Origin: a virus
Taxonomy: Duplodnaviria > Heunggongvirae > Uroviricota > Caudoviricetes
Strand: one strand, 5' to 3'
DNA length: 34,216 bases
Virus record (IMG/VR): IMGVR_UViG_3300029181_000137
The position numbers and the translations under genes are program-made. Below, in pieces: positions 5,041 through 22,611 of the stretch. Below the pieces are notes generated by a model. It was not told the origin of the DNA and searched no databases. It saw only the letters and a list, made by a program, of their open reading frames with translations. Position 1 is the stretch's first letter. Each line of letters opens with the position of its first letter.

Positions 5041-5059
5041 TTGTAATGAATTTTATTAA

Positions 5060-5590: not shown

Positions 5591-5625
5591 TTTTCGCCTA
5601 TTAACATTTTTCTAAATGTGCATTA

Positions 5626-5653: not shown

Positions 5654-5681
5654 CCAGCAATACCTGTGAGGGGAATCCTAG

Positions 5682-7925: not shown

Positions 7926-8281
7926 TACTGGTAATCCCCTTCTTCACCGTGGAACTCAAGATCAACCGTGCCTTCTTCGGCATTATGGTTCGCTTCGCCG
8001 TGCAGCCAGGCGGACGACAATACATAGACCTGACCGTTCGCCAGCTCGGCAGTGATGGTCATCTCATCAGACGAGGTGATTTTGCTCACCGGAAAATTCT
8101 TCGGCACCTTGAAGGTCCCTTTGACATAAGGCGCACGGTGAGTTTCCTTGCGGTCCACTGAACCGTCCAGGCCGATGATGTCATCATTGACCGTCCTGTT
8201 CATGGGCACCTCAATGCCGCCGGTCAGCGATAGCTGCTGACCGTCAATTTTGAAATAACAGGTTCCCCCGATACGGGCCAT
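7925..8281 (-). CDS. Tail tube protein (Mu M/gp40-like)
   Basis: 118-aa ORF directly downstream of the sheath gene, stop/start overlap. Confidence 0.75.
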   Translation of the reverse strand: MARIGGTCYFKIDGQQLSLTGGIEVPMNRTVNDDIIGLDGSVDRKETHRAPYVKGTFKVPKNFPVSKITSSDEMTITAELANGQVYVLSSAWLHGEANHNAEEGTVDLEFHGEEGDYQ

Positions 8282-9777
8282 TATGCAGACTCCTCTGAAT
8301 ACTGAAGACGGAACTGGTTAACCACGGCAAAAACACGCAACTGGTTAACATAGTCAGGCGGGAACAGCGTGTTCAGGCGGTTCGGATCGCTGGCATCACG
8401 CTCAACAACCAGGTACTGCTTAAACAGTTCGTAGTTTTCCACGATCCCCGCACGCTCAAGCTGACGGTAGGTTGCCAGCAGTTCCCCTTTGATTACCGCC
8501 GGGGTGACAATCGCCTGACCGGGACCAAAGCGGGTACCGTCGCTGGCAAGCTTGTGACGCCCGTACTTACTGGTAATGACGGATTTCAGTTTGCGCAGTA
8601 CATACGCACTGGTATGCAGCGTCTCGCTGTCGAGGTAGCTGTTATCCGCAACCCCGTAAGCATTTTTCCTGTACGTGGTGACATCACGCTGAATGCGCAG
8701 CCCCCCGCTTTCGACATACGCCGTTGCCACGCCATGAGACAGCAGGGTCTGCTGCTCGGTCATCGTGAACCGTTTCCCCTTCGGCGCAGGCAGCATACCC
8801 ACCAGCTCACCGGTCTGCGTGGGACGTGCCGGATCGTTGCGGATAAACACCGCTGCGCGGGCGGTACGGCTTGCCGCCAGCTCGTCGGCAGGCGTCTGGG
8901 TCTCTTTTTCGTACCCCGCCAGGGTGATGTGCTGCTGGTTAAACTGGTCACCTGCGTTCACCAGTTCTGACAGTGTGCCGGTCTTTGCCGTATACACATG
9001 ACCATACAGCTGACGCGCATAGCTCCAGCGACCGCTGGTATCGTTCATCTCGGTCACCAGCGTGTTAACGGAGGCCGTGTCGTTGAACGGCAGACCGATA
9101 TAATCAAACGGCTCATCCGCCATTGCAGCCACCGCGCCGGTGAGAACCGGAGCGCCCGTTCCGGCGGTCCCCGTCGCCACGGCAATCTGTACGCCCGCTG
9201 GCAGCACTTCGCCCCCACCGAAGCCGTAGTAATTGAGGCTGACAGGAATTTCATTCCCGCAAAGCCCCTTATGGCGAGCGGTCAATGTAACCACACCAGC
9301 CGAAGATGAGGCCGTAAACGGCAGGGCCGGAACGGCATTGATGGCATCTTTGATACTGCTGGCAATCGTCGCGACGTTATCGCCGTTGGTCACCGGTGCC
9401 TGCACGCGGGTACGTCCCACATAAACATTCACCGTGCCGGTTTCGGTTGCTGCCCCGGTCACCGTCAGCGTAACTGTTGCCGCCGCGCCTGTGGATTCAG
9501 GAACGGCAATCACATACAGCTCGCCAAACGGATCGGTCTGGCGATAAGCCTCGACCATACGCGCCAGCTGACTTCCCGCACCACAAATCTGGCGTGCATA
9601 GTCTGCCGACGGCATCAGTACCAGACTGTTGGCAACAATCTCTGCACCGTTATTGGCATGACCAATCAGCAGCGATGCTCCGCTGTCCTGTGCAGTATTC
9701 GCCGCCTGGTTATCCATTTCCGCATAAAACAACGGAACCAGCGTATTCGACGGAATGGTGTTAAAGCTTATCGTCAT
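8281..9777 (-). CDS. Contractile tail sheath protein (Mu L/gp39-like)
   Basis: 498-aa ORF, size and position of a myovirus sheath protein. Confidence 0.85.
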   Translation of the reverse strand: MTISFNTIPSNTLVPLFYAEMDNQAANTAQDSGASLLIGHANNGAEIVANSLVLMPSADYARQICGAGSQLARMVEAYRQTDPFGELYVIAVPESTGAAATVTLTVTGAATETGTVNVYVGRTRVQAPVTNGDNVATIASSIKDAINAVPALPFTASSSAGVVTLTARHKGLCGNEIPVSLNYYGFGGGEVLPAGVQIAVATGTAGTGAPVLTGAVAAMADEPFDYIGLPFNDTASVNTLVTEMNDTSGRWSYARQLYGHVYTAKTGTLSELVNAGDQFNQQHITLAGYEKETQTPADELAASRTARAAVFIRNDPARPTQTGELVGMLPAPKGKRFTMTEQQTLLSHGVATAYVESGGLRIQRDVTTYRKNAYGVADNSYLDSETLHTSAYVLRKLKSVITSKYGRHKLASDGTRFGPGQAIVTPAVIKGELLATYRQLERAGIVENYELFKQYLVVERDASDPNRLNTLFPPDYVNQLRVFAVVNQFRLQYSEESA

Positions 9778-9931
9778 CGGTATTCACCTTTTTATTCACG
9801 CGCCGGATATCACCCGCTGCTTCACGGCGCAGCCAGTAGTTGTTCTCGTCAACATTTCGCCCTTCGGCGGGCAAAAGGTCGCCGCGGGCAGGGTCAGGCA
9901 CTGACCGCCCTTTAACAGGTTTGACAAACAT
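9761..9931 (-). CDS. Small protein upstream of sheath (Mu gp38/DUF2635-like)
   Basis: 56-aa ORF I translated by hand (MFVKPVKGRSVPDPARGDLLPAEGRNVDENNYWLRREAAGDIRRVNKKVNTDDDKL); below the ORF-track size cutoff; fills the sheath-gp37 gap. Confidence 0.45.
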   Translation of the reverse strand: MFVKPVKGRSVPDPARGDLLPAEGRNVDENNYWLRREAAGDIRRVNKKVNTDDDKL

Positions 9932-9939
9932 GAGGATCC

Positions 9940-10500
9940 TCAGGAAGGAAGGGTTATTTCGGTGTGATGTTCGATATCGCCGTCAGGCCCGTTACCGGGC
10001 TCGAGATAATCAACATCAATCGCCAGCGTTTGCAGTTCATCCAGACTGTTCAGATCATCCTGCTGGCGGGTATCGTCTTCAGTCAGCTCGCTGATGACCG
10101 AAAAATCGAACTGATAAATCAGCTCATGACGATTCAGATCCAGCAGCGTGCCGCCGTCATAGGTAATCGGGTTACCGCACGCTTCCGGATTCCAGCCCAG
10201 CAGGGCCTTAAAGAGCATCTGCCGGACATCGTCCACCACATCATACGAGGCAAACTGACCGCGCTCATCACGCCCGTTACTCAGTATGACAACCACGGAG
10301 AAGCCCTCTTTCAGCTCCTGCCAGTAGTCGGTCTGGCTTTTGTTTTCTCCCGGAGAGTCATCACCCGGTACCACATACGCCGCCGGGAGTCTCAGCTTTC
10401 CGACCTCCGGCAGATTTTTGAACTGTGCCGCGCCTGCCACCCGGTTTTCAAAATACGGGCAGCGGGCACGCAGCGCAGCAATAACAGGCGTCAGTTTCAT
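9940..10500 (-). CDS. Mu gp37-like protein (DUF1834-like)
   Basis: 186-aa ORF in conserved position upstream of the sheath gene; 4-bp overlap with the upstream gene. Confidence 0.6.
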   Translation of the reverse strand: MKLTPVIAALRARCPYFENRVAGAAQFKNLPEVGKLRLPAAYVVPGDDSPGENKSQTDYWQELKEGFSVVVILSNGRDERGQFASYDVVDDVRQMLFKALLGWNPEACGNPITYDGGTLLDLNRHELIYQFDFSVISELTEDDTRQQDDLNSLDELQTLAIDVDYLEPGNGPDGDIEHHTEITLPS

Positions 10501-11003
10501 CTGTGTCGTCGCTCCGGCTTCAGTGATTTACGCAATTCCCGCGCCAGAAAATAGCGTGTCCAGCTGCGGTTCTTTTCAAGCGCTTCCACCATGAAGTTAT
10601 TACGTGGAGCCAGTCGCCAGCCGCTGCCACCGGATGCACCACGATGATGACTACGACGACGTTTTGCTCCTCCCCGGACACCAAAAAACAGAAACGCCGG
10701 ATAGAAGTCACCAGAGATCATCCGGTTCCCCTTCCCGTTGCGCTGGTTAGGGGCAATGCGTGTCATAAAACCGGCTCGCTTTTTACTGGCTCTCGGCACC
10801 ATATAACCAATCGAACGAGCCAGGCGTCCGGTCTGATAACCGGGGTTTTCACCCGGTGCCGACCGCGCACGGCGCATCACCAGCCGACGGGCATCACGCA
10901 TATGACGCTGCCCAATCGTGACAAACGCCCGCCGGACACGGGCGCGGTTAAAGCGCATCTCGGCGGGCTGCTGAACATCAACGTGAAAAAAGGGAGTCGC
11001 CAT
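10497..11003 (-). CDS. HK97 gp10-family virion protein
   Basis: 168-aa basic protein with TGRLARSIGY motif reminiscent of the HK97 gp10 family. Confidence 0.55.
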   Translation of the reverse strand: MATPFFHVDVQQPAEMRFNRARVRRAFVTIGQRHMRDARRLVMRRARSAPGENPGYQTGRLARSIGYMVPRASKKRAGFMTRIAPNQRNGKGNRMISGDFYPAFLFFGVRGGAKRRRSHHRGASGGSGWRLAPRNNFMVEALEKNRSWTRYFLARELRKSLKPERRHR

Positions 11004-11388
11004 TGCTGCCTCCGTGACTCTGCCTACATTCGCCCAGCTCCGTACACTCCAGCAGCAGAAAGCGCCGCGCCCCGTTCAGATCGCGCTGACGTTTCACCCG
11101 GTACACACTGTCACCGCAGACCACCTCATAATCAGCGGTGATCCCCCGGCGGTAACGAATGGTGATGTAATGGGTGATGGCGTCCCCGGTCTGCGCGGTT
11201 TCCTGCCAGGTGGTGGCACTGGTCTGGATAACCTTCGCCCATGTCCGGAACGTAACCGGGTATTGAGGCTCCACGCCAAAGTTATCCGCGGGCATATCCA
11301 CCCGCAGGCGGATCAGGACGCGTTTATTCAGTTCACCGGGGTCCGGCAGAATGTAGGTTGCGCTGGTCTGCGCCTGACGAATTTTCAT
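10978..11388 (-). CDS. Head closure / head-tail adaptor protein
   Basis: 136-aa ORF downstream of the connector-like gene; pattern consistent with head-tail joining family. Confidence 0.6.
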   Translation of the reverse strand: MKIRQAQTSATYILPDPGELNKRVLIRLRVDMPADNFGVEPQYPVTFRTWAKVIQTSATTWQETAQTGDAITHYITIRYRRGITADYEVVCGDSVYRVKRQRDLNGARRFLLLECTELGECRQSHGGSNGDSLFSR

Positions 11389-11708
11389 TGCGGAAAGTAC
11401 CTGTACGGGCCGACAAGCCAGCCAAAACTCTGCGGCATGTCGAGTTTCTCCACTTCCGTAACCGACGAGCGGTTTTCGTAAAAATGGCTGATAAGCATCA
11501 GCATCCCCAGACGAATATCATCCGGCAGGTGCAGCCCGTCCGGATCGCTCTCCGGAATGGTTTCATCCGGTGCATAGAGCTTCCGGTTCAGATACGTTTC
11601 CGTCCGCTTTTGCGCCGCACAGGCCAGCAGTTGCAGATGGCGGTCATCAGCATCGAAATCCTCATCCAGCCGGAGTTGGGCTTTAATCTCTTCCATTGTC
11701 AGAAGCAT
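11385..11708 (-). CDS. Head-tail connector protein (gp6-like)
   Basis: 107-aa acidic protein (EEIKAQLRLDEDFDADD...) typical of gp6-like connector/DNA-packaging proteins. Confidence 0.7.
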   Translation of the reverse strand: MLLTMEEIKAQLRLDEDFDADDRHLQLLACAAQKRTETYLNRKLYAPDETIPESDPDGLHLPDDIRLGMLMLISHFYENRSSVTEVEKLDMPQSFGWLVGPYRYFPQ

Positions 11709-11710
11709 AC

Positions 11711-11911
11711 TCAGCCCTCTTTACTGGTCGTGGCTTTTTTCTCTTTTGCCGCTTTACTGCTTTTTGCACTGGTTCCGCGCTCTGCTAACCCGGCCTGAAG
11801 TGCAATCTCCTGCACCCGGGCAGGAAGCGCCCCGTCGTCATACTCACCGGCCCGAATGACCTCAACACGCATACCGTCCGGTGACCATTTCAGATCTTGT
11901 TTCAGGATCAT
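11711..11911 (-). CDS. Small hypothetical protein downstream of capsid gene
   Basis: 66-aa ORF with Lys/Ser-rich tail, tightly packed in the head module. Confidence 0.45.
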   Translation of the reverse strand: MILKQDLKWSPDGMRVEVIRAGEYDDGALPARVQEIALQAGLAERGTSAKSSKAAKEKKATTSKEG

Positions 11912-11960
11912 GATTCTTCACCCGTCAGAACAGGGGGCGCGGTTCCGCGCCCCTGAGTGA

Positions 11961-13166
11961 TTACGCCGCTGCAATCTTCAGCAGTTTGATGGCCTGCGAA
12001 TCGACCAGCATCCCGCCGGTGCGCTTGGTGGTATAAAAACCGACAAACGGTTTATTGGTGTACGGGTCACGCAGAATGCGGGTGCCGATACGGTCAACGA
12101 TGGTGTAACCCCGTTTGAAGTTACCAAATGCAATGGCTTTCGCATCAGCGGCGATATCCGGCATCTGTTCGTTTTCAGCGATACCGTAACCCGCCAGAGA
12201 GGACGGCTGCCCCAGTTCCAGCCCCGGACGCCACAGATAGTTACCCTCGGTGTCTTTCAGCAGACGGATGGCAAACAGGCTGTTGTTGTTCATCATGAAC
12301 TTCGCGCCAGTGCGGTGTGCCTTACGCAGCGTGTAAATCAGTTTGATAATGGCGTCTGCGGTCACCGCGGTCGCTTCGCCGGATACAATATGCTGAAGTT
12401 TGCCGAACGCCCGGACCTTGTCGGTTTCATCAGTGGATTCATACGCCAGGAACCCTTTCGGCTTCTTGGTGCCATCGCCTGAGGTAAAGGCAATTTCTTC
12501 CTGTTCAGCAAATTCGGTTGCCAGCTCGCTGTTGATCCAGGCCTCCACGTTGAAGAAGGCATCGTCCAGCATTTTCTGGGTAGCCTGCGGGTTGCCGTAG
12601 ATTTCCCCCATGAGAGGTTCAATCAGCTCCAGTCTGGAGGTGGCAGTCTGGGATCGCGTATCCGTTTCCCCCACCCACCCGGAAGCCGTACCGCCCAGAT
12701 TCACCAGTTTTTTGTAGTCGGAACCGCCAACGGTGATCACCGTGGCTTCCTGACGCATCACCACTTCATCTTTCAGCAGGTTAAGAATGTTGCGATCCAG
12801 TTCTTCCGGCACGGCGTAGCCACCGTCTTCATCGGTACCCACCTGCAATGCCTTACGCTCCAGATCGCGCAGACCGTCTTCACGGCCTTTACGTAGAAAG
12901 CCCACAAACGCCTCTTTATGCTCGGTGGCCAGTTTATTTTGCGCTCCACCTGCCGGACGTTTCAGCTCAAGCAGCTCTTTTTCAAGGTCGCTTTTGAGAT
13001 TTTCCAGCTCGCTGAGTTTCCCGTTCAGGGTTTCCACCTGCCCGGCAAGCTTGCCTTTTTCCTGCTCAATCGCATCCACGCGCTTGTCGTTCTTTGCTTT
13101 GAAGTCGTCAAACTTCTGCTGCAGCTCCTGCGCGACCTGTTCGACATCTTTAATATCAACCGCCAT
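11961..13166 (-). CDS. Major capsid protein, HK97 family (with N-terminal delta/scaffold domain)
   Basis: 401-aa ORF; N-terminal 100 aa predicted coiled coil (QELQQKFDDFKAKNDKRVDAIEQEKGKLAGQVETLNGKLSELENLK), then capsid-like body; follows the prohead protease. Confidence 0.9.
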   Translation of the reverse strand: MAVDIKDVEQVAQELQQKFDDFKAKNDKRVDAIEQEKGKLAGQVETLNGKLSELENLKSDLEKELLELKRPAGGAQNKLATEHKEAFVGFLRKGREDGLRDLERKALQVGTDEDGGYAVPEELDRNILNLLKDEVVMRQEATVITVGGSDYKKLVNLGGTASGWVGETDTRSQTATSRLELIEPLMGEIYGNPQATQKMLDDAFFNVEAWINSELATEFAEQEEIAFTSGDGTKKPKGFLAYESTDETDKVRAFGKLQHIVSGEATAVTADAIIKLIYTLRKAHRTGAKFMMNNNSLFAIRLLKDTEGNYLWRPGLELGQPSSLAGYGIAENEQMPDIAADAKAIAFGNFKRGYTIVDRIGTRILRDPYTNKPFVGFYTTKRTGGMLVDSQAIKLLKIAAA

Positions 13167-13180
13167 CGTATTTCTCCTGA

Positions 13181-13867
13181 TTAGAAGTTCAGATTTTTCA
13201 GTGCATTCAGTGCAGAGCCCACATCCTCAGCGTCGCGCAGGGACAGTGCGCCATAGCCCCCGGCCATGAATGCTTTGGCCTGGGTACGGGAGAGTCCGAC
13301 ATCACGCAGGACTCTTTCGATTTTTTTCTGTTCGGGGATTTCCCCGCGGGCCAGCGCGTTCTTGACGTCGCTGATCCGCGCCTCGTCGTTAGACGGAAAC
13401 GTCACCAGACTGACTTCCCAGAGGTCGATTTCTTTCAGCAGAAAGGCTTCTTTGCTCCGGTCGTATTCCCAGTCTTTCAGGACGTACCCAATAGAAAGGC
13501 CGGTTAACGAACCGGCCTTCATGTGTGCATGTGCGCGTTTTGCGAGGGGATCATCATCAATAAGCAACCGCCCCCTGACGTAAAGCCCGACATCGTCTTC
13601 CTTCATTTCGGTGTAAACACCGATGGGTTCATCCATGCGGTGCTGCCAGAGCAGCGCAGGTAACGCTTTTCTGTCACTCCACGCCCGCAGGGAAGCAGCA
13701 AATGCCCCGGACATCACCACATCATCGTGGCTGTCCTTTACACCAAAGACGGAGCCATACCCTTCAAACTCACCGGAGTCACTGACAGATTTCAGACTCA
13801 GCGGTACATCAAGACGTTGTTTCGTCTGCATTGGCGTTATCCTTCTGCTTACCGGCTTTACTGCCAT
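13181..13867 (-). CDS. Prohead protease, HK97 family
   Basis: 228-aa ORF between portal and capsid genes; size and sequence character of the prohead protease family. Confidence 0.85.
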   Translation of the reverse strand: MAVKPVSRRITPMQTKQRLDVPLSLKSVSDSGEFEGYGSVFGVKDSHDDVVMSGAFAASLRAWSDRKALPALLWQHRMDEPIGVYTEMKEDDVGLYVRGRLLIDDDPLAKRAHAHMKAGSLTGLSIGYVLKDWEYDRSKEAFLLKEIDLWEVSLVTFPSNDEARISDVKNALARGEIPEQKKIERVLRDVGLSRTQAKAFMAGGYGALSLRDAEDVGSALNALKNLNF

Positions 13868-14771
13868 CGGAGGGTTTCGTGGTCATGTTCATCGGTGTGA
13901 GATAGACATCCCCACCGGGACGCGGATTCATATCTTCCAGGTCGCGGCAGTCATTGGGAGAGTAAATTCCCCAGTTAATCCCGGTGGCGTAGGCTTCAAA
14001 ACGGGACTTCATATCCCCGCGCAGTAACGCCCCGGCGTTAAATTTGGCGTAATAAACGCCCTGCTTACTTTTTCGTACCAGTCCGGTGTTGATCCGCTGC
14101 TCAATGCGGGTCAGATACGGCACCAGTGAATAGTTGATAAATCCGAGCCCCAGCTCTTCGATATTGTTGAAGGTGGCGCGATCGGTGTTCTGCACCATGT
14201 GCAATGGCACACGGAACAGACGACAAATTTCTTCAAGCTGAAACTTGCGGGTTTCCAGGAACTGGCTGTCCTCTGCGTTCAACGCCATCGACTTCCAGTC
14301 CAGCCCCATCTCAAGGATCATCGGGCGGTGAGCATTGCCAAGCCCGGTGTGACGCTCCTCAAAATCTTTCTTCAGGCGCTCATAAGCCTGATCCGACAGC
14401 GTCTGCTCTGTACGCAAAACACCCGACGTCACCGCGCCATTGCTGAACAGTCTGGCCCCGTGCTCTTCGGTCGCTGCCGCCAGCGATATTGCCTCGCGGG
14501 CATAGGCGATGGGATTCAGCCCCACCAGTCCGTCCAGCGTCAGCGTACGCACATGCCAGATATCCTCCTGGCTCAGTACATCCGTGGAGCCATCCGGGAA
14601 TGTGACCTGATAGACCGGTTCCCAGCTACTGTTAAGCTTCGGTACCACACAGCCGGGATCGACGGGCAGCAGTTCAGCCACTTCGCCAAATGCTTTCACT
14701 TTGTAGGCGTAAAAGTTTCCCCTCAGGCACAGACAGGTGACCACCAGCTCCCAGAACTCCTGCGGCGTCAT
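13809..14771 (-). CDS. Portal protein, HK97 family, N-terminally truncated
   Basis: 320-aa ORF (intact portals are about 400+ aa); begins at the conserved ...HPNGY-MTPQEFWELVV...LRGNFYAY... portal segment; the frame stays open upstream to 14945 without a start codon. Confidence 0.7.
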   Translation of the reverse strand: MTPQEFWELVVTCLCLRGNFYAYKVKAFGEVAELLPVDPGCVVPKLNSSWEPVYQVTFPDGSTDVLSQEDIWHVRTLTLDGLVGLNPIAYAREAISLAAATEEHGARLFSNGAVTSGVLRTEQTLSDQAYERLKKDFEERHTGLGNAHRPMILEMGLDWKSMALNAEDSQFLETRKFQLEEICRLFRVPLHMVQNTDRATFNNIEELGLGFINYSLVPYLTRIEQRINTGLVRKSKQGVYYAKFNAGALLRGDMKSRFEAYATGINWGIYSPNDCRDLEDMNPRPGGDVYLTPMNMTTKPSDGSKAGKQKDNANADETTS

Positions 14772-14842
14772 ATAGCCATTGGGATGCGTGGAGATCAGTT
14801 TATGCAGACGTTCGCCGGTGGCTCTCTGCTTCAGGCTGCCGT

Positions 14843-14923
14843 TCAGGTGATACAGATTCCGGCCAGCGCCTTGCGCGCCGTTGGCTTGGGGCGACGCCCG
14901 GAACGCCCCGCCGTTCCAGCCAT
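14843..14923 (-). pseudogene. Small terminase (P27-family-like) remnant, 26 codons
   Basis: Hand translation MAGTAGRSGRRPKPTARKALAGICIT*; the GR(R/P)PKPT..K.L.G start matches my memory of P27-family small terminase N-termini, then premature stop. Confidence 0.55.
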
Positions 14924-15048
14924 ATGCGGCACTCCTGGTTAAATTTCATTTTTCGCGGGTATAAAAAAACGATGGGGCGGGCAGTCCGGAAGACGTCAGG
15001 CCGCAGGGATTTGACCCGCCCCTCCCCTCAGGAAGTTGAGAATTATTA

Positions 15049-15399
15049 TCACTTCAACCGTTCACGGGCCGTCTTCGCCTTATGACATGGCCAGCACAGG
15101 CTCTGCAGATTACTGTCAGCGTCAGTGCCGCCATGCGCCTTAGGGATAATGTGGTCAACGGTTTTCGCCTCACGCACCACACCGGCACGCAGACATAACT
15201 GACACAGGCCTTTGTCACGCTTCAGCACACGTTCACGGATGGTATCCCACTTCGAACCGTAACCGCGCTGATGACGTGACAGGCCTGGTTTGTATTGCTT
15301 CCAGCCTTCGCTTTTGTGGCTTTCGCAATAGCCTGACGGGTCAGTAGTGGTATTGCGGCAACCGCGAACGCGGCAGGCTTTTGGTGTACGTGGTGGCAT
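15049..15399 (-). CDS. HNH endonuclease (terminase-associated type)
   Basis: Cys/His motifs CRVRGC...CESH...VDHIIPKAHGG...NLQSLCWPCH; start chosen at internal Met (MPPRTPKACRV) with AAGGAA SD; ORF track start is 15486. Confidence 0.8.
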   Translation of the reverse strand: MPPRTPKACRVRGCRNTTTDPSGYCESHKSEGWKQYKPGLSRHQRGYGSKWDTIRERVLKRDKGLCQLCLRAGVVREAKTVDHIIPKAHGGTDADSNLQSLCWPCHKAKTARERLK

Positions 15400-15472
15400 T
15401 AATTGTTTCCTTAAGCCATTACGATGCGTCTGAAAATGAGTTAATCTGAAAATTCCTTCACTATGCGAGAGC

Positions 15473-15778
15473 ATGACAATGGTCATAGGACAAGAAGATC
15501 AGAAATGCTGCCCGGCTTGCAATTCAGATGCGACCTGGCAGAACCGTGATACCGCTTGGTTAATTAGATGCCCGATGTGTGAAACATTTCTCATCAGGAA
15601 TTCCACCATTGAAATTTTGCGAAGTGACGTTGTGTATCGGACATTAGCTGGTGACCTTCTCAAACAAGAAGGTGGGTGTGACTACATGCTTACAAGAGGA
15701 AGGCTTGCGAACTTCGCGAAAACCCAGCTCCCAAAATCAAAGTTTCAGGAATACTTCCCTGGTGACAACTACGAATAA
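15473..15778 (+). CDS. Small zinc-ribbon protein, opposite-strand ORF inside the late region
   Basis: 101-aa ORF with CPAC-x17-CPMC spacing; antisense to late transcription; weak RBS, so uncertain. Confidence 0.4.
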   Translation: MTMVIGQEDQKCCPACNSDATWQNRDTAWLIRCPMCETFLIRNSTIEILRSDVVYRTLAGDLLKQEGGCDYMLTRGRLANFAKTQLPKSKFQEYFPGDNYE

Positions 15779-15819
15779 GCCATTACAAAGCCCACCCGCA
15801 GATGAGCTTTGTAATGGCT
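15778..15819. terminator. Perfect 14-bp inverted repeat between convergent genes
   Basis: AGCCATTACAAAGC-14 nt-GCTTTGTAATGGCT; no U-tract; lies between the zinc-ribbon ORF stop and the Rz1 stop. Confidence 0.4.
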
Positions 15820-16075
15820 ACTGTGAGTTGCGTGACGTTTCTATCTTCCTGATACTGGCCTTGTCGATGTTGCACTGGCCCAGCGCCGAAAGCAGGCTCA
15901 CATTCAGATCCAGACTGGCCCCATAGGTCAGCGGGTCGGGAATGACTGGCTGGGGCGTTTCAGTGGTCAGGCTTGTTGGCAGCGGTACCGCCGGAGCCGG
16001 CACGTAAACTGTTCGCGTACTTCCGCAACCTGTCAGCAGCGGCAGCAGGCACAGGACGTACAGCACAATCATCAT
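15818..16075 (-). CDS. Rz1: o-spanin Rz1 (outer-membrane lipoprotein)
   Basis: Internal start MMIVLYVLCLLPLLTGCGS with lipobox LLTGC and Pro-rich mature part; overlaps the 3' end of Rz in another frame. Confidence 0.7.
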   Translation of the reverse strand: MMIVLYVLCLLPLLTGCGSTRTVYVPAPAVPLPTSLTTETPQPVIPDPLTYGASLDLNVSLLSALGQCNIDKASIRKIETSRNSQ

Positions 16076-16352
16076 CCGCAACAGCCCCTTTGATATCTTC
16101 CTGGGTTCTCTGTGACTCCAGTACGATCTGCTGTTTTGCATACTGGTTAGCCTCCAGAACTGTATTGACGATTTGCAGTGATTGCAGGACGTTATTGGTA
16201 ATGGCAGTTGCTGATTCAGCATTTCGTACAGCCTCATTAGCACGTTTCTTTTCGTGCTGATATTTGCTGTAGTAGTGGCTGGCAGACCAAGTGAAAGAAC
16301 CGATGACAGTCACGAAGAAAGCAGCGATAACCAGCTTATAGCTCAACTTCAT
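15960..16352 (-). CDS. Rz: i-spanin Rz
   Basis: 130-aa ORF with N-terminal TM helix (LVIAAFFVTVIGSFTW) and coiled-coil body, directly after the endolysin. Confidence 0.75.
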   Translation of the reverse strand: MKLSYKLVIAAFFVTVIGSFTWSASHYYSKYQHEKKRANEAVRNAESATAITNNVLQSLQIVNTVLEANQYAKQQIVLESQRTQEDIKGAVADDDCAVRPVPAAAADRLRKYANSLRAGSGGTAANKPDH

Positions 16353-16812
16353 TTACCACCCCGCCAGCCTCTTTAAACCGGGCAATCAGGTCACCGATTT
16401 TATGTTCATACTGACCGTAACCTGCACCGGGTAATGAAGCCCAGATATTGCTGCAACGATCGATAGCCTGACGGATATCGCCACGATCAATCATCGGTAA
16501 AGCGCCACGCTCTTTAATCTGCTGCAGTGCAACAGCGTCCTGGCTTTTCGGAGAGAAGTCTTTCAGGCCAAGCTGCTTGCGGTAGGCATCCCACCAACGG
16601 GAAAGAAGCTGGTAACGTCCGGCGGCTGTTGATTTAAGTTTCTGGTTCAGCGTGACAAGTTTGCGAGGATGATCGGAGTAATCAGTGAAGAGTTTGCCAC
16701 CAACAATAACATCATAACCGTGGTTTCGTGTTGGTTGTCGCCCGTTATCCGTTCCTTCTGACCACGCCACCATATCGAGGAAAGCTTTACGCTGAGAATT
16801 TAGTGTCTGCAT
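16336..16812 (-). CDS. R: Endolysin, lambda R-like lytic transglycosylase
   Basis: 158 aa, near-identical by memory to lambda R (NSQRKAFLDMVAWSEGTDNGRQ...HGYDVIVGG...RYQLLSRWWDAYRKQLGLKDFSP...). Confidence 0.9.
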   Translation of the reverse strand: MQTLNSQRKAFLDMVAWSEGTDNGRQPTRNHGYDVIVGGKLFTDYSDHPRKLVTLNQKLKSTAAGRYQLLSRWWDAYRKQLGLKDFSPKSQDAVALQQIKERGALPMIDRGDIRQAIDRCSNIWASLPGAGYGQYEHKIGDLIARFKEAGGVVNEVEL

Positions 16813-16815
16813 AAA

Positions 16816-17151
16816 TTACTCCTTAGAGCCACCAAACTTGTTACCGATTACTCTCATTGCAGCCCCGCGAATTGCATCGACCCCGATCAGCCCCACCCCA
16901 CCACCAATGGCAACAGAAAGCGATTTAGGCCATCCGACATACTCAAGAGCGGATGCAAAAGTCAGCGTCAGAGCGCCACAAAGCAGAATTTCGAGTGTTT
17001 TTCGTTTCCAGCCGCCACCACCACCAAAATAGGCAATACGCAAACCAGCCATAACAATCGACATAATCACTGCGCCAAGAGGCGTATCTCCACGCCACCA
17101 GCTCTGGAACAACTCCAACCAGTCCGGCCAGGTATTTGGGTTATGAGGCAT
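16816..17151 (-). CDS. S: Holin, lambda S-like (three TM segments)
   Basis: Three hydrophobic segments and GGGG turn resembling lambda S; start set at MPHNPN with GAGGTGA SD; ORF track gives an upstream start at 17223. Confidence 0.7.
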   Translation of the reverse strand: MPHNPNTWPDWLELFQSWWRGDTPLGAVIMSIVMAGLRIAYFGGGGGWKRKTLEILLCGALTLTFASALEYVGWPKSLSVAIGGGVGLIGVDAIRGAAMRVIGNKFGGSKE

Positions 17152-17228
17152 TTCGTCATCTCTCACCTCGCGATTATTTGCGGGTGCTGTGTTGGAAATA
17201 AAAAGGCCACGCAACGTGACCACCAGAA

Positions 17229-18281
17229 TTATTTCCCCACCAGTTCACTTACCTCTTTCGCCGTCTGGTTAAACCGTTCTGACTCAAGCTCAACACCTAA
17301 CGCCCGACGCCCCAGCGCCATTGCTGCTTTTATTGTGGAACCGGATCCCATAAAGAAATCAGCAACCAGATCGCCTGGCCGACTACTGGCATTGATTATT
17401 TGTCGGAGCATATCCGCTGGTTTCTCACACGGATGTTTACCCGGGTAGAACTGAACGGGGTTATGCATCCAGACATCGGTATAAGGCACGGAGACTGATA
17501 CGGAGAAATAGCGCCGGAGAGATTTAAACTCATCCAGCAATTCAGAATATTTGCGATTCAGTGAATCATAAGATGCCACCAGCTGGTGGTGTGGTTGTTC
17601 CAGTTGTTGTTTCTGAAACTTCTCTGCCGCTATACGGGAAAAAAGTGCCTGCAACTTCCGGTAGTCAGCCTCATTCGGCAACTGCCACTGACTGGCACCA
17701 AACCAGTGGGAAACCATATTTTTCTTACCTGTGGCTTCGGCAATCTGTTTTGCCGTTATACCCAGTTCGGCACGAGCATCCCTGAAATACGATATCAGCG
17801 GTGCCATTATGTGCTGTTTGAGTTCCCTTTCTTTTGCCGCATAGCCGTCACTTTTGCCGCGATATGGCCCCTGGTAATGTTCAGCAAACAGAACGCGCTC
17901 TGTGGCAGGAAAATATGCGCGCAAACTTTCTTTATTACACCCATTCCATCGTCCGGACGGCTTCGCCCAGATGATATGGTTAAGCACATTGAAACGTTCA
18001 CGCATCATGATCTCGATATCAGATGCCAGGCGATGTCCACAGAACAGGTAAAGGCTTCCGGCAGGTTTCAACACCCGCCAGAACTGGGCCAGACAGTGGT
18101 CCAGCCACTTAAGGTAATCTTCGTCCCCTTTCCACTGATTGTCCCAGCCGTTGGGCTTCACTTTGAAGTACGGTGGATCGGTAACAATCAGATCAATGGA
18201 GTCATCAGGCAGGGACTGAATAAAATGCAGGCAATCAGCGTTGATTAAATCAACACTGTTTATTTTTACAGTATTTTTCAT
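17229..18281 (-). CDS. Orphan DNA methyltransferase, beta-class (N6-adenine or N4-cytosine)
   Basis: 350-aa ORF with DPPY catalytic motif near the N-terminus (LIVTDPPYF) and AdoMet motif FxGxG near the C-terminus (DFFMGSGST); no adjacent restriction gene. Confidence 0.85.
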   Translation of the reverse strand: MKNTVKINSVDLINADCLHFIQSLPDDSIDLIVTDPPYFKVKPNGWDNQWKGDEDYLKWLDHCLAQFWRVLKPAGSLYLFCGHRLASDIEIMMRERFNVLNHIIWAKPSGRWNGCNKESLRAYFPATERVLFAEHYQGPYRGKSDGYAAKERELKQHIMAPLISYFRDARAELGITAKQIAEATGKKNMVSHWFGASQWQLPNEADYRKLQALFSRIAAEKFQKQQLEQPHHQLVASYDSLNRKYSELLDEFKSLRRYFSVSVSVPYTDVWMHNPVQFYPGKHPCEKPADMLRQIINASSRPGDLVADFFMGSGSTIKAAMALGRRALGVELESERFNQTAKEVSELVGK

Positions 18282-18416
18282 GGATCAGTAAGCGTAACTC
18301 TGGTAGGCTCACTCTGCTTTTGCGCTAAAGCAGTGGGCCATGGTTCGCTTGTGACCAGTAAGCATGAGCGAATGGCTGGCAGGTGCTACCAACACCCACC
18401 AGCCGCCCATTTTCAC

Positions 18417-18443
18417 AAATTAAAAGCCCTTCATTGCTGAAGG
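18417..18443 (-). terminator. Intrinsic terminator-like hairpin at the end of the small ORF
   Basis: Minus strand CCTTCA-GCAA-TGAAGG followed by GCTTTTAATTT; overlaps the stop codon of ORF 18431..18649. Confidence 0.4.
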
Positions 18444-18649
18444 CGTCTGTAACAGCCGAACTGGTAATCTACCAGCCCCGCCATAACCAGCTGGGTCAGT
18501 ATTAACTGACAGCGTTCGCGTGAAAGGTATGTGTTTTGTGCAATCTCCCCGACTGTTGCCGGTTCGATGCTTAATTCATTAAAAACAACTTTTGCCGTTT
18601 CTGTCATATCTTGCTGTTTTAGCATGTCTTTTTCCCTTCTGGTTAACAT
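18431..18649 (-). CDS. Small hypothetical protein
   Basis: 72-aa ORF in late-operon orientation between the cargo cassette and the methyltransferase; no recognisable family. Confidence 0.45.
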   Translation of the reverse strand: MLTRREKDMLKQQDMTETAKVVFNELSIEPATVGEIAQNTYLSRERCQLILTQLVMAGLVDYQFGCYRRLQQ

Positions 18650-18747
18650 GACATACCAATAACTCTTGTCTAAAAAGCCAGCAAGATAAAAAGTCAGTAT
18701 TCACGACCACCAGCGTGTTTACCGTACTGCTCTTGGTTTACAGGTAC

Positions 18748-18768
18748 AAAAAAACCGCTCGACGGCGG
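18748..18768. terminator. Short GC hairpin flanked by A7/T7 runs
   Basis: AAAAAAA-CCGC-TCGACG-GCGG; reads as stem plus T7 on the minus strand; weak 4-bp stem. Confidence 0.3.
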
Positions 18769-18870
18769 GTTTAAGCTGTGTGGCGAAGTAACCACTCTTA
18801 ACAGATTATGATAGTTTTTGCGTACGCGTTAGTAATTTATTATGCTCTTTACAATTGTTAGCTTAACCGC

Positions 18871-20037
18871 ATGGAATTGACCAAAAAAATGAGCAAAGCA
18901 AGCATACGCCACGTAATCGTTCATGAGCTCTTAAAAGAATCTAATAAAGACTTCGATCACTCCAAACCATACAATCTTCGTGATACAGAACTAGATAAAA
19001 CAAATGATATAGTAAAAAAATTAGTAGACGGTGTTATTGATTTGTATGGTTCAAAAGGGAACTCAGCGCATTATGGTGTTTTTATTAAAAATAAAACAAA
19101 GCAAGGCCCTATACCAGAACTATTTCATAAATACTCTTTAGTTCAACAATCTGTTTCAAGTGATTTCATTGAATTATCGAAGGAAGTTATGAAACAAATG
19201 TATAAATCTGCTCAAGAGCAGATTTGGGCTTCTGGAGGATATGTTGTTTTTACTGATTATATTTTATCTGGTTTCCGTTATCTATTGGTTACAATGATCA
19301 AAAAAACTAATGGCGTAACTATTAGTGAAAATTTAGAGCCAGAGGAAATGATTCACTTAGAACTTGGTAATATTAACCAAGCAGCAAAAATAAATTTCAG
19401 ATATTATGAAGAATACCAAAAAGCAGATGACTTAAAAAAAACAGAGTTAAGTTATCTAAGCTTTATAAGCAAAACTACGGGACAGTCAGCGGCAGCATAT
19501 TTTATAGCAGCATTAGGATGTGACAAGGGGATTGCTTCAGCAGGTGCAACCCGTAAGTTACCAGATGAAATAAGGCGTTTCTTTAAGAAAGAACCTCTTT
19601 TAAAAAATCAAGCAGAGTCATTTAGAAATGATGTTATCAAATACTTAGAAAAGCAATTTGACAACGAGCACTCTGCAAGGCTTTCTGATATCGAATCGCT
19701 TGCTTCAGGCCATATGTCCTATTTAAAAGAGGAAGAAAAAACAGAACTTGTTGATAAATTAATGAAACACCTCAATAGTGAGGAAGTCAGAATCCCATCA
19801 GAGTTCGTAATCAATAAAAACTCCTTAGATAAAATCCGCAATGTGATATATAAAACTCCATCATTGAGCTTTCACTTCGACAAGGATTTACTCGGTGTCA
19901 CAACTGATGCTAAAATATATTATGATGACGAAAACCAAAGCCTAACATTTAATAATTTGCCTGTTGAAGCATTAACTAAGATAAGAAGAGCGTTGAAAGA
20001 AACTGATAACCCGAGTAACGAAGAAGATAAAGAATGA
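18871..20037 (+). CDS. NdpA/YejK-family (NA37) nucleoid-associated-like protein, cargo gene A
   Basis: 388-aa ORF; blocks alignable by eye to E. coli YejK (GGYVVFTDY..RYLLV...ISENLE; YLSFISKTTGQSAAAYFIAALG; FHFDKDLLG); about 30-35% GC by eye; opposite strand to phage genes. Confidence 0.8.
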   Translation: MELTKKMSKASIRHVIVHELLKESNKDFDHSKPYNLRDTELDKTNDIVKKLVDGVIDLYGSKGNSAHYGVFIKNKTKQGPIPELFHKYSLVQQSVSSDFIELSKEVMKQMYKSAQEQIWASGGYVVFTDYILSGFRYLLVTMIKKTNGVTISENLEPEEMIHLELGNINQAAKINFRYYEEYQKADDLKKTELSYLSFISKTTGQSAAAYFIAALGCDKGIASAGATRKLPDEIRRFFKKEPLLKNQAESFRNDVIKYLEKQFDNEHSARLSDIESLASGHMSYLKEEEKTELVDKLMKHLNSEEVRIPSEFVINKNSLDKIRNVIYKTPSLSFHFDKDLLGVTTDAKIYYDDENQSLTFNNLPVEALTKIRRALKETDNPSNEEDKE

Positions 20038-21260
20038 ATGATTTTAGTATAATAGTTAATCTGTATAGATTATCAAGCTATCCTCATTTTGACGGGGCTA
20101 AGTTTTCTGCGCGTATAGCTTATAATGCAGACGTAAAATCATTGTTCAAAAGAATTTTGAACCCTACTTTTCAAGCTGGTACAGCTGACGAAATAGAGGT
20201 GGATGGTCATTTAATTTATGATTATGAAGACTTTCCTGAAAAGGGAAATTTTCTTACATACTCGTTTAAAATTTCACAAGGAAGTGCGAATCGTTTTTAT
20301 AAAAATAAAAACGAGTTTGTAAAAATAAACACGCTCAAGAAAGGCATAATGCCAGAGTATTTCTATATTATAGAGGATGATTTCTATTCATTAGAAACAC
20401 CAAAACCTTCTTATATCCAAAAAATTGAGGACATTTGTGAGCTAATCAATGCTCTTTCCATGCTTGCTCATTTCCATGATATAAAAAAAGATAGCAAAGG
20501 TACATTTTATCGTTTAGTCTTTATTTTAAACTCAGAGTCTAAATCTTCTTCTGCTGTAATTGAAACAAATATTACAGAAGAAATTTTTAATGATAAAACA
20601 GTAAATACTCAGTTAGTTAAAACATTAGTAAGTAGTGAAGCTACTACTGATGCCCATCATATTGAAAAGATTAACACTTTCAGAAACACAGTTATTGAGT
20701 ATGTTAATAAAAATGGAAATTCCTTTGTCGAGTTAATTAACAAGTGGGATTTCATATGCGAACTTTATACGAACAACTTAGCTGCTTATATGTCGGCATT
20801 TTCTTTTCATAAAGCAAGGAAAGAAGTTGTTGATGCTGAACTCGATTACTCAGAAAAACTGTCAAAAATAATTTCAGAAATTTCTAACAAAGCTCTTGCC
20901 ATACCTATTTCACTAGCTGGTTCAATTGCTATTTTTAAATTAACAACAAAAGCTGATTGGATTATTGCTTTAATTGGATTGATTATCACAGCAATAATAA
21001 CATCTGCAATGATTGTGTCACAAAAAAAACAACTTGCTCGTATTTCACACTCTAAAGAAATACTTTTTGGACAATTAAGATATAGAATAAAGGATGACAC
21101 CAGCGATCTTAAAGAGAGCTTAGAAGAGGCTATTAAAAAATTAAATGACAATGAGGATTTTTGTCATAAGGTGCTTGACAGTTTATTATCACTAGCATGG
21201 ATGCCTACATTCATAGGCATCATCGGTATTTTATTTAAATTAATGCCAAATATTACTTGA
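20034..21260 (+). CDS. Membrane protein with three C-terminal TM helices, cargo gene B
   Basis: 408-aa ORF, ATGA start/stop overlap with gene A; hydrophobic segments LAIPISLAGSIAIFKL, WIIALIGLIITAIITSAMIVS, LLSLAWMPTFIGIIGILFKLM; AT-rich. Confidence 0.8.
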   Translation: MNDFSIIVNLYRLSSYPHFDGAKFSARIAYNADVKSLFKRILNPTFQAGTADEIEVDGHLIYDYEDFPEKGNFLTYSFKISQGSANRFYKNKNEFVKINTLKKGIMPEYFYIIEDDFYSLETPKPSYIQKIEDICELINALSMLAHFHDIKKDSKGTFYRLVFILNSESKSSSAVIETNITEEIFNDKTVNTQLVKTLVSSEATTDAHHIEKINTFRNTVIEYVNKNGNSFVELINKWDFICELYTNNLAAYMSAFSFHKARKEVVDAELDYSEKLSKIISEISNKALAIPISLAGSIAIFKLTTKADWIIALIGLIITAIITSAMIVSQKKQLARISHSKEILFGQLRYRIKDDTSDLKESLEEAIKKLNDNEDFCHKVLDSLLSLAWMPTFIGIIGILFKLMPNIT

Positions 21261-21612
21261 GCATGTACATAACCCCATTAATGAAACCTAACGCAGTCTG
21301 CAATTGCTTCCGGATTGTTCCATCTGAGCATCTGCGTCTCTTCGCAATAGAACGCAGTGAAATACCTATAACGAAGTGAGCAATGATCAGCTCATATTCG
21401 TCTGGTTTATACTTACACAGGCGGGCAACACAGCCGTCTATCATGATGCCTTCATCATCATCACACTGAAGGCGTATTTTTTTACCATGAGGTAAAAGCC
21501 CCTTAAAGCCTGCTGCTATCGGCTGCCAGTCCACACCACTGTTATCTGCTGCAGCCCACGCTCCCCAGCGGTCTAAAACTTCATACATATCACGCATCAA
21601 CTTTCTCCACAA
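21253..21612 (-). CDS. Q: Late antiterminator Q (QuuD / Phage_antitermQ type)
   Basis: 119 aa with LDRWGAWAA...IAAGFKGL...C..C...CSDG pattern matching my memory of DLP12 QuuD. Confidence 0.8.
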   Translation of the reverse strand: MWRKLMRDMYEVLDRWGAWAAADNSGVDWQPIAAGFKGLLPHGKKIRLQCDDDEGIMIDGCVARLCKYKPDEYELIIAHFVIGISLRSIAKRRRCSDGTIRKQLQTALGFINGVMYMLK

Positions 21613-21614
21613 AA

Positions 21615-22610
21615 TCAGGCCAGCACACCAATTGCCAGCGCGCGATCGATAAAACGAAATATCAGCTCCAGCTGGGAGCCATACTTCTCTTCAAATGCCA
21701 CGGTATCCGCGTGCAGCTCGTCGTGATGCTTTCTGCACAAAGGCAACACAAAGAGATCATGCGCTTTTGTACCCATTCCACCCTGACCGTGGCCTATCAA
21801 GTGGTGGGGATCATCAGCTGGCTTTCCACAACATGCGCACGGCTGCGTCTTAACCCAGCGCGTGTACTTTTCATTAACCCAGCGGCGACGTTTGGGGCGT
21901 AACATAAAAGACTCCGGCGACTCCGGATCCACTTTCAGCACCAGCACCTTTTTCGCTTTATCCTGGATAATGCTGGTGGCAGGAACCGAAGGCACAAGGT
22001 CACTTTCCCGGGTGACAGATGGCACAACAGGCTTCGGTAATCTCAGTGCCTTACGGGCGGCACTTTCCGGTAAGGCATCCGCCAAATCATTACGAACCAG
22101 CCACCAGCACAGTTCCGGCATTGTCACAACGTGACTGTCATCAAAACCGAGATCCAGACGCACGACAGACAACACCCAGCGGGCACAGTTATCCGTTGCC
22201 ATTGATTCCAGCCGTTCCGTGAACTGATCGCGCAGCTGGTTATCGCAGTGCCAGCACAGACGAATTGCTCCCGGAGCGTGCCGCATTGTGGTCATGTTCT
22301 CGCTGTGCCAGTCGGAATGAGGCCACTGACAGTCCTTTTCACGAAGTAACCAGCTTTCAAGACATTCCACGCCACCAGCACGACGGATCACTGCCTCATT
22401 GCGGAACACGGCCCGAACGGCAGGATCATCCGCCAGCGGTTGTGATGCCGCCGGAACGGCACCACTGGCGAAAGATGAATAACGTTCCGGCTCAGGCTCC
22501 AGCAGGACACGCCCCTGCATAAACAGGGGCATCAGCTCTGAACCTGGCCTGAACAATACGATCCCCATACGCGGGGCAATTTCAGGGGTCAGTAGTGCTC
22601 TCACGGTCAC
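21615..22610 (-). CDS. DUF968-like prophage protein with C-terminal HNH-like Cys/His motif
   Basis: 331-aa ORF; C-terminus CACCGKPADDPHHLIGHG...CRKHHDELH; nin-region position upstream of Q; family from memory. Confidence 0.55.
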   Translation of the reverse strand: MTVRALLTPEIAPRMGIVLFRPGSELMPLFMQGRVLLEPEPERYSSFASGAVPAASQPLADDPAVRAVFRNEAVIRRAGGVECLESWLLREKDCQWPHSDWHSENMTTMRHAPGAIRLCWHCDNQLRDQFTERLESMATDNCARWVLSVVRLDLGFDDSHVVTMPELCWWLVRNDLADALPESAARKALRLPKPVVPSVTRESDLVPSVPATSIIQDKAKKVLVLKVDPESPESFMLRPKRRRWVNEKYTRWVKTQPCACCGKPADDPHHLIGHGQGGMGTKAHDLFVLPLCRKHHDELHADTVAFEEKYGSQLELIFRFIDRALAIGVLA

Positions 22611-22611
22611 C

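What the first reader, a model, noticed from the sequence alone, without database searches (positions are those of the whole stretch)
14772..15048. Packaging module is disrupted: HNH, then a 26-codon small-terminase stub, no large terminase, N-truncated portal
In HK97-type heads the expected order is HNH, terS, terL, portal, protease, capsid. Here HNH (15049..15399) is followed by an ORF that stops after 26 codons with a P27-like N-terminus, and 70 bp further the portal frame begins at a conserved internal motif with no start codon upstream. A single deletion removing most of terS, all of terL and about 50-80 portal codons would explain this, making the prophage unable to package DNA while keeping lysis and tail genes. 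A GC-rich inverted repeat (GGGGCGGG...CCCGCCCC plus T7) between HNH and the stub may be a terminator or cos-related site.
Basis: partly seen in the sequence, partly recalled or inferred. Interest (0 to 1): 0.6.

Follow-up and report, generated by a model that had tools for sequence, protein, structure and literature searches.

The report
Prophage crippled by one packaging-gene deletion
An otherwise intact E. coli prophage of the SfI/SfV/ST64B type has lost its DNA-packaging genes in a single 2.5-kb deletion, which is ordinary prophage decay and not a new kind of element.

Summary
On the minus strand, an HNH gene (15399..15049) is followed by an intact cos site and then a 26-codon small-terminase stub (14923..14843). 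The stub runs straight into portal DNA that starts at portal codon 65 of 413.

Ten intact relatives, including phage SfI and E. coli YZ3-11, 1008S13 and GCA_037889575.1, give the same breakpoints. The lesion is one 2,543-bp deletion at window 14858/14857, with 2 bp of microhomology (AA). It removes terS codons 23-164, all of terL (577 aa), the 60-aa ymfR gene and portal codons 1-64.

No terL or ymfR homologue is found elsewhere in the window. All 44 other reference genes checked are full length and free of stop codons, so the deletion looks like a single recent event.

The right arm of the "GC-rich inverted repeat" is the 10-nt cohesive end found experimentally in SfI (TGCCCGCCCC). It is not a terminator.

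The junction is rare. It is absent from 5,426 complete E. coli genomes and occurs in one other assembly, which is 100% identical.

The expected outcome is a prophage that can be induced and can lyse the cell but cannot package DNA. Interest is low.

The parts
15049..15399 (-). HNH endonuclease gene (116 aa), intact. It is the accessory nuclease of HK97-type cos packaging.
   Evidence: Pfam PF01844 at E = 2.3e-16. The exact protein is listed in 2,557 blocks of the collection, and in all 10 places shown it is followed by terS, terL, a 60-aa gene and the portal region (the 413-aa gene was not called in one of them).
15015..15022 (-). Left arm (GGGGCGGG) of the 8-bp inverted repeat that flanks cos.
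   Evidence: Read directly from the sequence. It is conserved in SfI. The fold is no more stable than shuffled sequence, z = -0.2.
14974..14983 (-). The cos cohesive-end sequence TGCCCGCCCC. It contains the right arm (CCCGCCCC) of the inverted repeat.
   Evidence: Identical to the 10-nt gap found by sequencing SfI virion DNA ends (PMC3636060). The SfI record ends exactly here.
14924..14973 (-). Spacer between cos and terS, with T7 and A5 tracts and the terS Shine-Dalgarno (AGGAG). It is the probable TerS-binding region, by analogy with HK97.
   Evidence: 100% identical to SfI positions 2-50. The HK97 TerS site lies 15-29 bp downstream of the cos cut and includes an A-tract (PMC11331095). The assignment here is an inference.
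14843..14923 (-). Small-terminase stub ORF: 22 native codons, 4 out-of-frame codons and a TGA stop.
   Evidence: Translation. tblastn shows terS residues 1-22 at 100% identity. The intact terS is 164 aa and carries PF05119.
14857..14858 (-). Deletion junction. The two A residues are shared by both parental flanks (2-bp microhomology).
   Evidence: BLAST segments overlap by 2 nt against SfI, L014 and L016-L025. The flanking sequences are printed.
13809..14856 (-). Portal gene remnant, codons 65-413 of 413. The first in-frame start is the ATG at 14771 (Met94), which has no Shine-Dalgarno.
   Evidence: tblastn shows residues 65-413 at 99.4% identity. Pfam Phage_portal profile positions 28-321 of 321 are covered. 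There is no start codon upstream.
13181..13867 (-). HK97-family prohead protease gene, intact.
   Evidence: 100% identical over the full length to the L014 protease. PF04586.
11961..13166 (-). HK97-type major capsid protein gene, intact (401 aa).
   Evidence: Full-length match at 97% identity with no stop codons. PF05065.
1..11911 (-). Head-completion and contractile-tail/baseplate genes (connector, sheath, tube, tape measure, baseplate). All are full length as far as the window edge.
   Evidence: Colinear with SfI positions 2661-16927 at 97% identity. Every reference protein is covered end to end without stop codons.
15842..17151 (-). Lysis cassette (holin, endolysin, i-spanin/o-spanin), intact.
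   Evidence: Essentially full-length matches without stop codons: holin and endolysin end to end, the spanins to within a few C-terminal residues (129/130 and 77/82).
32773..32848 (-). tRNA-Thr(CGT) (thrW) at the prophage/chromosome border. The integrase gene lies at 31595..32758 and proA at 32963..34216.
   Evidence: ARAGORN. The integrase is 100% identical to that of the L014 prophage, which sits at the same site next to proA.

Best explanation
The window is most of an E. coli prophage of the SfI/SfV/ST64B/phiP27 group, which has an HK97-type head, cos packaging assisted by an HNH nuclease, and a Mu-like contractile tail. It is integrated at tRNA-thrW next to proA.

It carries one illegitimate-recombination deletion of 2,543 bp with 2-bp microhomology. 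The deletion joins codon 23 of the small-terminase gene, out of frame, to codon 65 of the portal gene. It removes TerS (apart from a 22-residue N-terminal stub), TerL, the small membrane protein YmfR and the portal N-terminus together with the portal start codon.

Everything else visible is intact: integrase, repressor, replication genes, Q, the lysis cassette, HNH, cos, protease, capsid, connectors and tail.

Shown: the deletion, its exact breakpoints, its rarity, and the integrity of the other genes.

Inferred from established phage biology: on induction the element can probably still excise, replicate, express late genes and lyse the cell. It cannot cut cos or fill heads, because it has no terminase, and it cannot build portal-containing proheads. 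It would therefore release only empty shells and free tails. It is a recently immobilised, defective prophage.
For: - **Breakpoints.** terS-side homology ends at window 14857 and portal-side homology starts at 14858. This holds against SfI, L014 and nine of the ten further prophages. The gap is always 2,543 bp.
- **What is missing.** tblastn finds terS residues 1-22 and portal residues 65-413 only, with no terL or ymfR in the window.
- **What the intact form looks like.** Relatives carrying the identical HNH protein have HNH, terS (164 aa), terL (577 aa), a 60-aa gene and the portal (413 aa) in all 10 places shown, although the portal gene was not called in one of them. PGAP-annotated siblings agree.
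- **Other genes.** 44 of 44 other reference genes are full length with no in-frame stop codons.
- **cos.** The sequence TGCCCGCCCC is retained.
- **Independent assembly.** The same junction lies in a metagenome contig that is 100% identical over 20,963 bp but has different contig ends.
- **Role of terminase and HNH.** PMC9410871 and PMC3592412.
Against: - Only a 34-kb window is available. A second prophage elsewhere in the host could supply terminase and portal in trans, so whether no particles form in the cell cannot be decided here.
- The far end of the prophage, with the tail fibres and the second att site, is outside the window. The element may carry further lesions there.
- The two assemblies that share the junction may come from the same or closely related samples. 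Independence is suggested only by their different contig boundaries.
- No expression or induction data exist.
Confidence: 0.93

Rival explanations
1. Helper-dependent element. The deletion derivative persists as a satellite-like, cos-bearing prophage that is packaged in trans by a co-resident or superinfecting relative. The helper would supply TerS, TerL and portal, so the loss is tolerated or even selected.
For: - cos, HNH and the cos-proximal 116 bp are intact. By analogy with HK97, that stretch should hold the TerS-binding site.
- SfI, SfII, SfIV and SfV are reported to share the same cos (PMC3851460).
- Some E. coli genomes give 4-7 matching places, which means at least two prophages of this family in one cell.
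- The genome would be only 2.5 kb shorter than the wild type.
Against: - The junction is out of frame and has only 2-bp microhomology, as expected of an accident.
- It is found in no complete E. coli genome out of 5,426 and in only one other assembly, which is 100% identical. There is therefore no sign of spread or selection.
- The element keeps a full, costly set of head and tail genes, unlike true satellites.
- No helper is visible in the window.
Confidence: 0.05
2. Assembly or sequencing artefact. The junction is a mis-join, and the real genome has the intact packaging module.
For: Only one other assembly shows the junction, and it could derive from related data. No complete genome carries it.
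Against: - The two flanks share only 2 bp, so a k-mer or overlap assembler has no repeat on which to mis-join.
- A second assembly with different contig ends has the identical junction and is 100% identical over 21 kb. That contig starts at the att/thrW border, whereas the window runs on into proA.
- The flanking sequence is clean, with all neighbouring ORFs intact.
Confidence: 0.02
3. A natural alternative gene arrangement, in which this phage lineage normally lacks terS and terL at this position and encodes a functional terminase and a short portal elsewhere.
For: Gene callers often report a 320-aa portal in related contigs.
Against: - Those 320-aa calls come from contigs in which the portal N-terminus is itself damaged, or in which the contig starts at an IS element.
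- Every relative with the same HNH has the full module.
- The window has no terL homologue.
- The portal remnant lacks a start codon and Pfam profile positions 1-27.
Confidence: 0.01

Closest known systems
Enterobacteria phage SfI (NC_027339), with SfII, SfIV, SfV, Salmonella phage ST64B and phage phiP27
   Same: - The structural module is colinear with SfI positions 2661-16927 at 97% nucleotide identity.
- The window has an identical cos decamer, an identical terS N-terminus and the same order of HNH then cos then terS.
- The integrase is related and the integration site at thrW/proA is the same.
   Different: - The window lacks SfI positions 118-2660, which hold most of terS, terL, gp03/YmfR and portal codons 1-64.
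- The early region is of a different lambdoid mosaic type: megablast finds no match between 15400 and 31356.
- No gtr serotype-conversion genes are seen, because that region is outside the window.
Intact sibling prophages at thrW in E. coli 1008S13 (NZ_CP147053) and in GCA_037889575.1
   Same: They share the chromosomal site and the early, regulatory, cargo and lysis genes at 97-99.9% identity.
   Different: - They carry the complete terS-terL-ymfR-portal block; the window has the 2,543-bp gap.
- There are small mosaic differences at 28770-30063 and 15414-15897.
Cryptic or defective E. coli prophages such as e14, Rac, DLP12 and CP4-6, as a general class
   Same: These are prophages immobilised by the loss of essential morphogenesis or packaging genes through deletion (general knowledge; review PMC6379469 listed).
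   Different: The classical cryptic prophages are heavily eroded. This one has a single lesion and otherwise intact genes, so it is at the very first step of decay.
HK97 cos packaging system (TerS, TerL, HNH gp74, portal)
   Same: The architecture is the same, with an HNH gene next to cos and the terminase genes. The HNH stimulates cos cleavage by TerL (PMC9410871; PMC3592412).
   Different: Only the HNH gene and cos survive here. The motor and the recognition subunit are gone.

Membership tests
SfI/SfV/ST64B-like temperate myovirus prophage (HK97-type head, Mu-like tail) | Colinear head, tail and baseplate gene set with high identity to type members | tested here: met
   14.8 kb is colinear with SfI at 97% identity. 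All structural proteins are matched full length.
SfI/SfV/ST64B-like temperate myovirus prophage (HK97-type head, Mu-like tail) | cos packaging with the cohesive end TGCCCGCCCC located between the HNH gene and terS | tested here: met
   The decamer is present at 14983..14974. It was determined experimentally for SfI. Cleavage itself cannot be tested here.
SfI/SfV/ST64B-like temperate myovirus prophage (HK97-type head, Mu-like tail) | Complete packaging module (terS, terL, portal), as needed for a viable phage | tested here: not met
   Only terS residues 1-22 and portal residues 65-413 remain, and terL is absent. The element is a defective derivative, not a viable member.
P27-family small terminase (Pfam PF05119, Terminase_4) | Full Terminase_4 domain of about 160 aa | tested here: not met
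   The stub has 22 native residues, identical to the N-terminus of the 164-aa protein. The rest is deleted.
Phage portal protein (Pfam PF04860) | Complete domain with its own start codon | tested here: not met
   Profile positions 28-321 of 321 are covered, against 2-321 in SfI. There is no ATG, GTG or TTG before Met94.
Phage-associated HNH endonuclease of cos packaging systems | HNH domain, with the gene immediately upstream of cos and terS | tested here: met
   PF01844 at E = 2e-16. The position is as in SfI and E. coli siblings.
   The arms are 33 nt apart, and the T7 run starts 4 nt after the right arm. The scan finds no terminator in 14600-15600. The fold has z = -0.2 against shuffled sequence.
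Phage satellite (PICI / cf-PICI / P4-like) | A small element lacking most structural genes, with dedicated functions for hijacking a helper | tested here: not met
   The element keeps a full lambdoid early region and complete head, tail and lysis modules. No satellite-specific genes were seen.
R-type tailocin locus | Tail and lysis genes without capsid, protease or replication genes, conserved as such across strains | tested here: not met
   Capsid, protease, connector and replication genes are all present. The arrangement is not conserved: it is absent from 5,426 complete genomes.

The most novel reading that the evidence does not exclude
The deletion derivative is not simply dead. It keeps cos, the likely TerS-binding site, HNH and a full set of capsid and tail genes. 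It could therefore behave as a helper-dependent element that is packaged and transferred by any co-resident phage of the SfI/SfV/ST64B group with the same cos. Alternatively, on induction it could act as a producer of free contractile tails, in the manner of a tailocin.
Probability: 0.08. Interest if true: 0.3.

Novelty: already known. Interest (0 to 1): 0.1.

Why it matters
The finding matters mainly for annotation. This prophage should be labelled defective, with terS and the portal gene marked as pseudogenes and terL and ymfR as deleted, even though prophage-finding software would probably score it as intact.

It is a clean example of the first step of prophage decay: one lesion and nothing else eroded. 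It also gives an exactly mapped breakpoint that could serve as a clonal marker.

It does not open any new biological question.

Tried and rejected
- **Terminator reading of the inverted repeat: rejected.** The terminator scan is negative and the fold is no better than shuffled sequence. The right arm is the cos overhang.
- **Terminase elsewhere in the window: rejected.** tblastn with SfI TerS, TerL and YmfR at E ≤ 10 gave only noise.
- **Search for the junction elsewhere.** An exact 41-mer search gave 0 hits in the GTDB species representatives and 0 in IMG/VR. It gave one metagenome contig, ERZ773111 NODE_365. No complete E. coli genome has the two halves abutting.
- **Look-up of the 320-aa portal product.** It mostly returned contigs with other portal defects or noisy assemblies. 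This is a selection bias of the exact-product query, not evidence for a natural short portal. The six "similar places not shown" for L003 could not be inspected, so the number of samples carrying the deletion is unknown.
- **Look-up of the 408-aa neighbouring protein to find more carriers.** It returned only the longest contigs, and none of them had the deletion.
- **Longer repeats at the breakpoints.** None was found beyond the AA.
- **Satellite and tailocin readings: rejected** on gene content and lack of conservation.
- **PADLOC and literature check of the NA37/408-aa pair.** Both gave nothing.

Full report
**What is in the sequence.** All genes of interest lie on the minus strand. The elements are, in order:
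- An HNH endonuclease gene at 15399..15049 (116 aa; Pfam HNH, E = 2e-16).
- A 125-bp spacer.
- A short ORF with a good Shine-Dalgarno (AGGAG) and an ATG at 14923, stopping at TGA 14845..14843 after 26 codons: MAGTAGRSGRRPKPTARKALAGICIT*.
- A long reading frame ending at 13809, which is a phage portal (Pfam PF04860, E = 4e-99, profile positions 28-321 of 321).

The portal frame has no ATG, GTG or TTG between its upstream stop codon and the ATG at 14771. That ATG has no purine-rich Shine-Dalgarno in front of it. The prohead protease, the HK97-type capsid gene, the connector genes and a complete contractile-tail and baseplate set follow, down to position 1.

**Mapping the lesion.** Megablast of 13800-15500 against phage genomes splits the query into two blocks that abut in the window but lie about 2.5 kb apart in every relative.

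Against phage SfI (NC_027339; annotation):
- Window 15399..14974 matches the HNH gene and the end of the SfI record.
- Window 14972..14857 matches SfI positions 2-117 at 100% identity.
- Window 14858 onwards matches SfI from position 2661.

The two blocks overlap by the dinucleotide AA. The parental flanks are ...GCGCTGGCCGGAA|ACCCCGG... (terS) and ...GCCCTGCAA|TCTGTATC... (portal). The window reads ...GCGCTGGCCGGAATCTGTATC....

The same breakpoints and the same gap of 2,543 bp are obtained against several intact prophages:
- The sibling prophage of E. coli 1008S13.
- Nine of the ten further prophages that encode the identical HNH protein; the tenth (L022) gave no portal-side match.
- Among those, GCA_037889575.1 is 99.87% identical to the window on the HNH side.

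In protein terms, terS residues 1-22 of 164 remain at 100% identity and portal residues 65-413 of 413 remain at 99.4%. terL (577 aa) and the 60-aa membrane protein gene ymfR/gp03 are gone. The junction is out of frame, which is why the stub ends after four foreign codons.

**Is it the only lesion?** I translated 47 reference genes from the intact sibling and from SfI and compared them with the window. Apart from terS, terL, ymfR and the portal gene, one further gene (a non-essential 169-aa hypothetical gene) has no match, because the window carries a different segment there. The other 44 are covered end to end with no in-frame stop codon. They include:
- integrase, excisionase and the LexA-type repressor;
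- the cro-like gene, replication genes and Q;
- the DNA methyltransferase;
- holin, endolysin and spanins;
- HNH, protease, capsid and connectors;
- sheath, tube, tape measure and baseplate.

The element sits at tRNA-Thr(CGT) (32773..32848) next to proA. This is the site used by SfI, SfII, SfV and SfX and by the intact sibling. The picture is a prophage that was whole until one recent deletion.

**The inverted repeat is cos.** Its right arm lies inside TGCCCGCCCC (14983..14974). That is exactly the 10-nt gap found when the ends of SfI virion DNA were sequenced, meaning it is the cohesive end (PMC3636060). SfII, SfIV and SfV are reported to share it (PMC3851460).

As a terminator it fails. The arms are 33 nt apart, the consensus scan finds nothing in 14600-15600, and the fold is no more stable than shuffled sequence (z = -0.2).

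The T7 and A5 tracts just downstream of cos fall where HK97 TerS binds, 15-29 bp from the cut and including an A-tract (PMC11331095). By analogy they are probably part of the packaging signal. This is an inference. The cis-acting signals and the HNH accessory nuclease therefore survive, but the enzyme they serve does not. HNH proteins sit next to cos and the terminase genes in many phages (PMC3592412) and stimulate cos cleavage by TerL in HK97 (PMC9410871).

**How common is it?**
- None of 5,426 complete E. coli genomes has the two halves abutting, although 1,668 of them carry matching prophage sequence.
- The 41-nt junction is absent from the GTDB species representatives and from IMG/VR.
- It occurs in one metagenome contig, ERZ773111 NODE_365.

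That contig is 100% identical to window 3809..24771. By its coordinates it starts at the att/thrW border, whereas the window continues into proA, so it is a separate assembly. With only 2 bp shared by the flanks there is nothing on which an assembler could mis-join. I therefore rate an artefact as very unlikely, and the allele as real but confined to one lineage.

**How it most likely works.**
- Shown: the deletion, its endpoints, and the integrity of the remaining genes.
- Established knowledge: TerS, TerL and portal are each essential for tailed-phage DNA packaging, and HK97-type capsid protein plus protease can still form portal-less shells.
- Inferred: on SOS induction the element should still excise, replicate, transcribe its late operon and lyse the cell. 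It would release empty shells and free tails but no infectious particles.

The deletion gives the host no obvious protection, because lysis is intact. It is best seen as a neutral accident of illegitimate recombination.

**Rivals.**
- A helper-dependent life style, with packaging in trans by a relative that has the same cos, is physically possible. cos is intact, and some E. coli genomes hold two or more prophages of this family (up to 7 matching places). Nothing suggests selection for it: the allele is rare, the junction is out of frame, and the costly structural genes are all retained.
- A natural short arrangement is refuted by the relatives.
- Satellite and tailocin identities fail on gene content and conservation.

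**Comparison and novelty.** This is a defective derivative of a well-described phage group (SfI, SfII, SfIV, SfV, ST64B, phiP27) and an early-stage example of the familiar decay of prophages by deletion. The particular allele is undescribed but the phenomenon is ordinary. Interest is 0.1.

Noticed in passing
window 18871..21260 (+ strand, opposite to the late operon): Two overlapping genes sit between the Q antiterminator gene and the methyltransferase/lysis genes. One encodes a 388-aa NA37 (YejK-like nucleoid-associated protein) homologue. The other encodes a 408-aa protein with no Pfam hit. The exact 408-aa protein is listed in 1,061 blocks of the collection. In the places shown it always lies with the NA37 gene just after Q, in lambdoid prophages that have quite different packaging modules. 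In sibling prophages the same slot holds Kiwa (KwaA/KwaB; L022) or a TIR_2 protein (L005, L023, L024). That makes the pair a candidate anti-phage cargo. PADLOC and a literature search gave nothing.
   Followed up: partly
L010 1..109 and L011 1..26 (corresponding to window ~14796 and ~14791): In other genomes the same portal gene is interrupted a few codons upstream of Met94 by insertion sequences. One is an IS3 end (L010, confirmed). The other looks like an IS1 terminal repeat (L011, recognised from memory only). L006 appears to have an in-frame stop at portal codon 84. These are independent inactivations of the same gene, although they were found through a query that selects for truncated portals.
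   Followed up: partly
window 28770..30063: A segment of about 1.3 kb is absent from the otherwise near-identical sibling prophage of E. coli 1008S13. It carries a 274-aa DUF2303 protein gene (29222..30046, + strand). The same gene occurs in other relatives (L026, L033), so this is mosaic exchange and not an insertion specific to this element.
   Followed up: no
window 5060..5590 (- strand): A 176-aa ORF lies between the tape-measure gene and the DNA-circulation gene. It has no Pfam or PADLOC hit and is absent from SfI, where the two genes are only about 45 bp apart. It is present in several E. coli contigs (L003, L005, L006, L011).
   Followed up: no
window 15414..15897: The segment between the spanin genes and HNH differs from E. 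coli 1008S13, which has a 169-aa hypothetical gene there. In the window it holds a 101-aa ORF on the opposite strand (15473..15778) with weak zinc-ribbon / Lar-like matches that fall below the Pfam cut-offs. The same 99-aa gene is called in L019, L022 and L024.
   Followed up: no
window 17229..18281 (- strand): A 350-aa N6/N4 DNA methyltransferase gene lies just upstream of the holin gene. It is a strong match to a PADLOC type II methyltransferase model, and no partner nuclease is visible. It is probably an orphan, phage-borne methylase.
   Followed up: no
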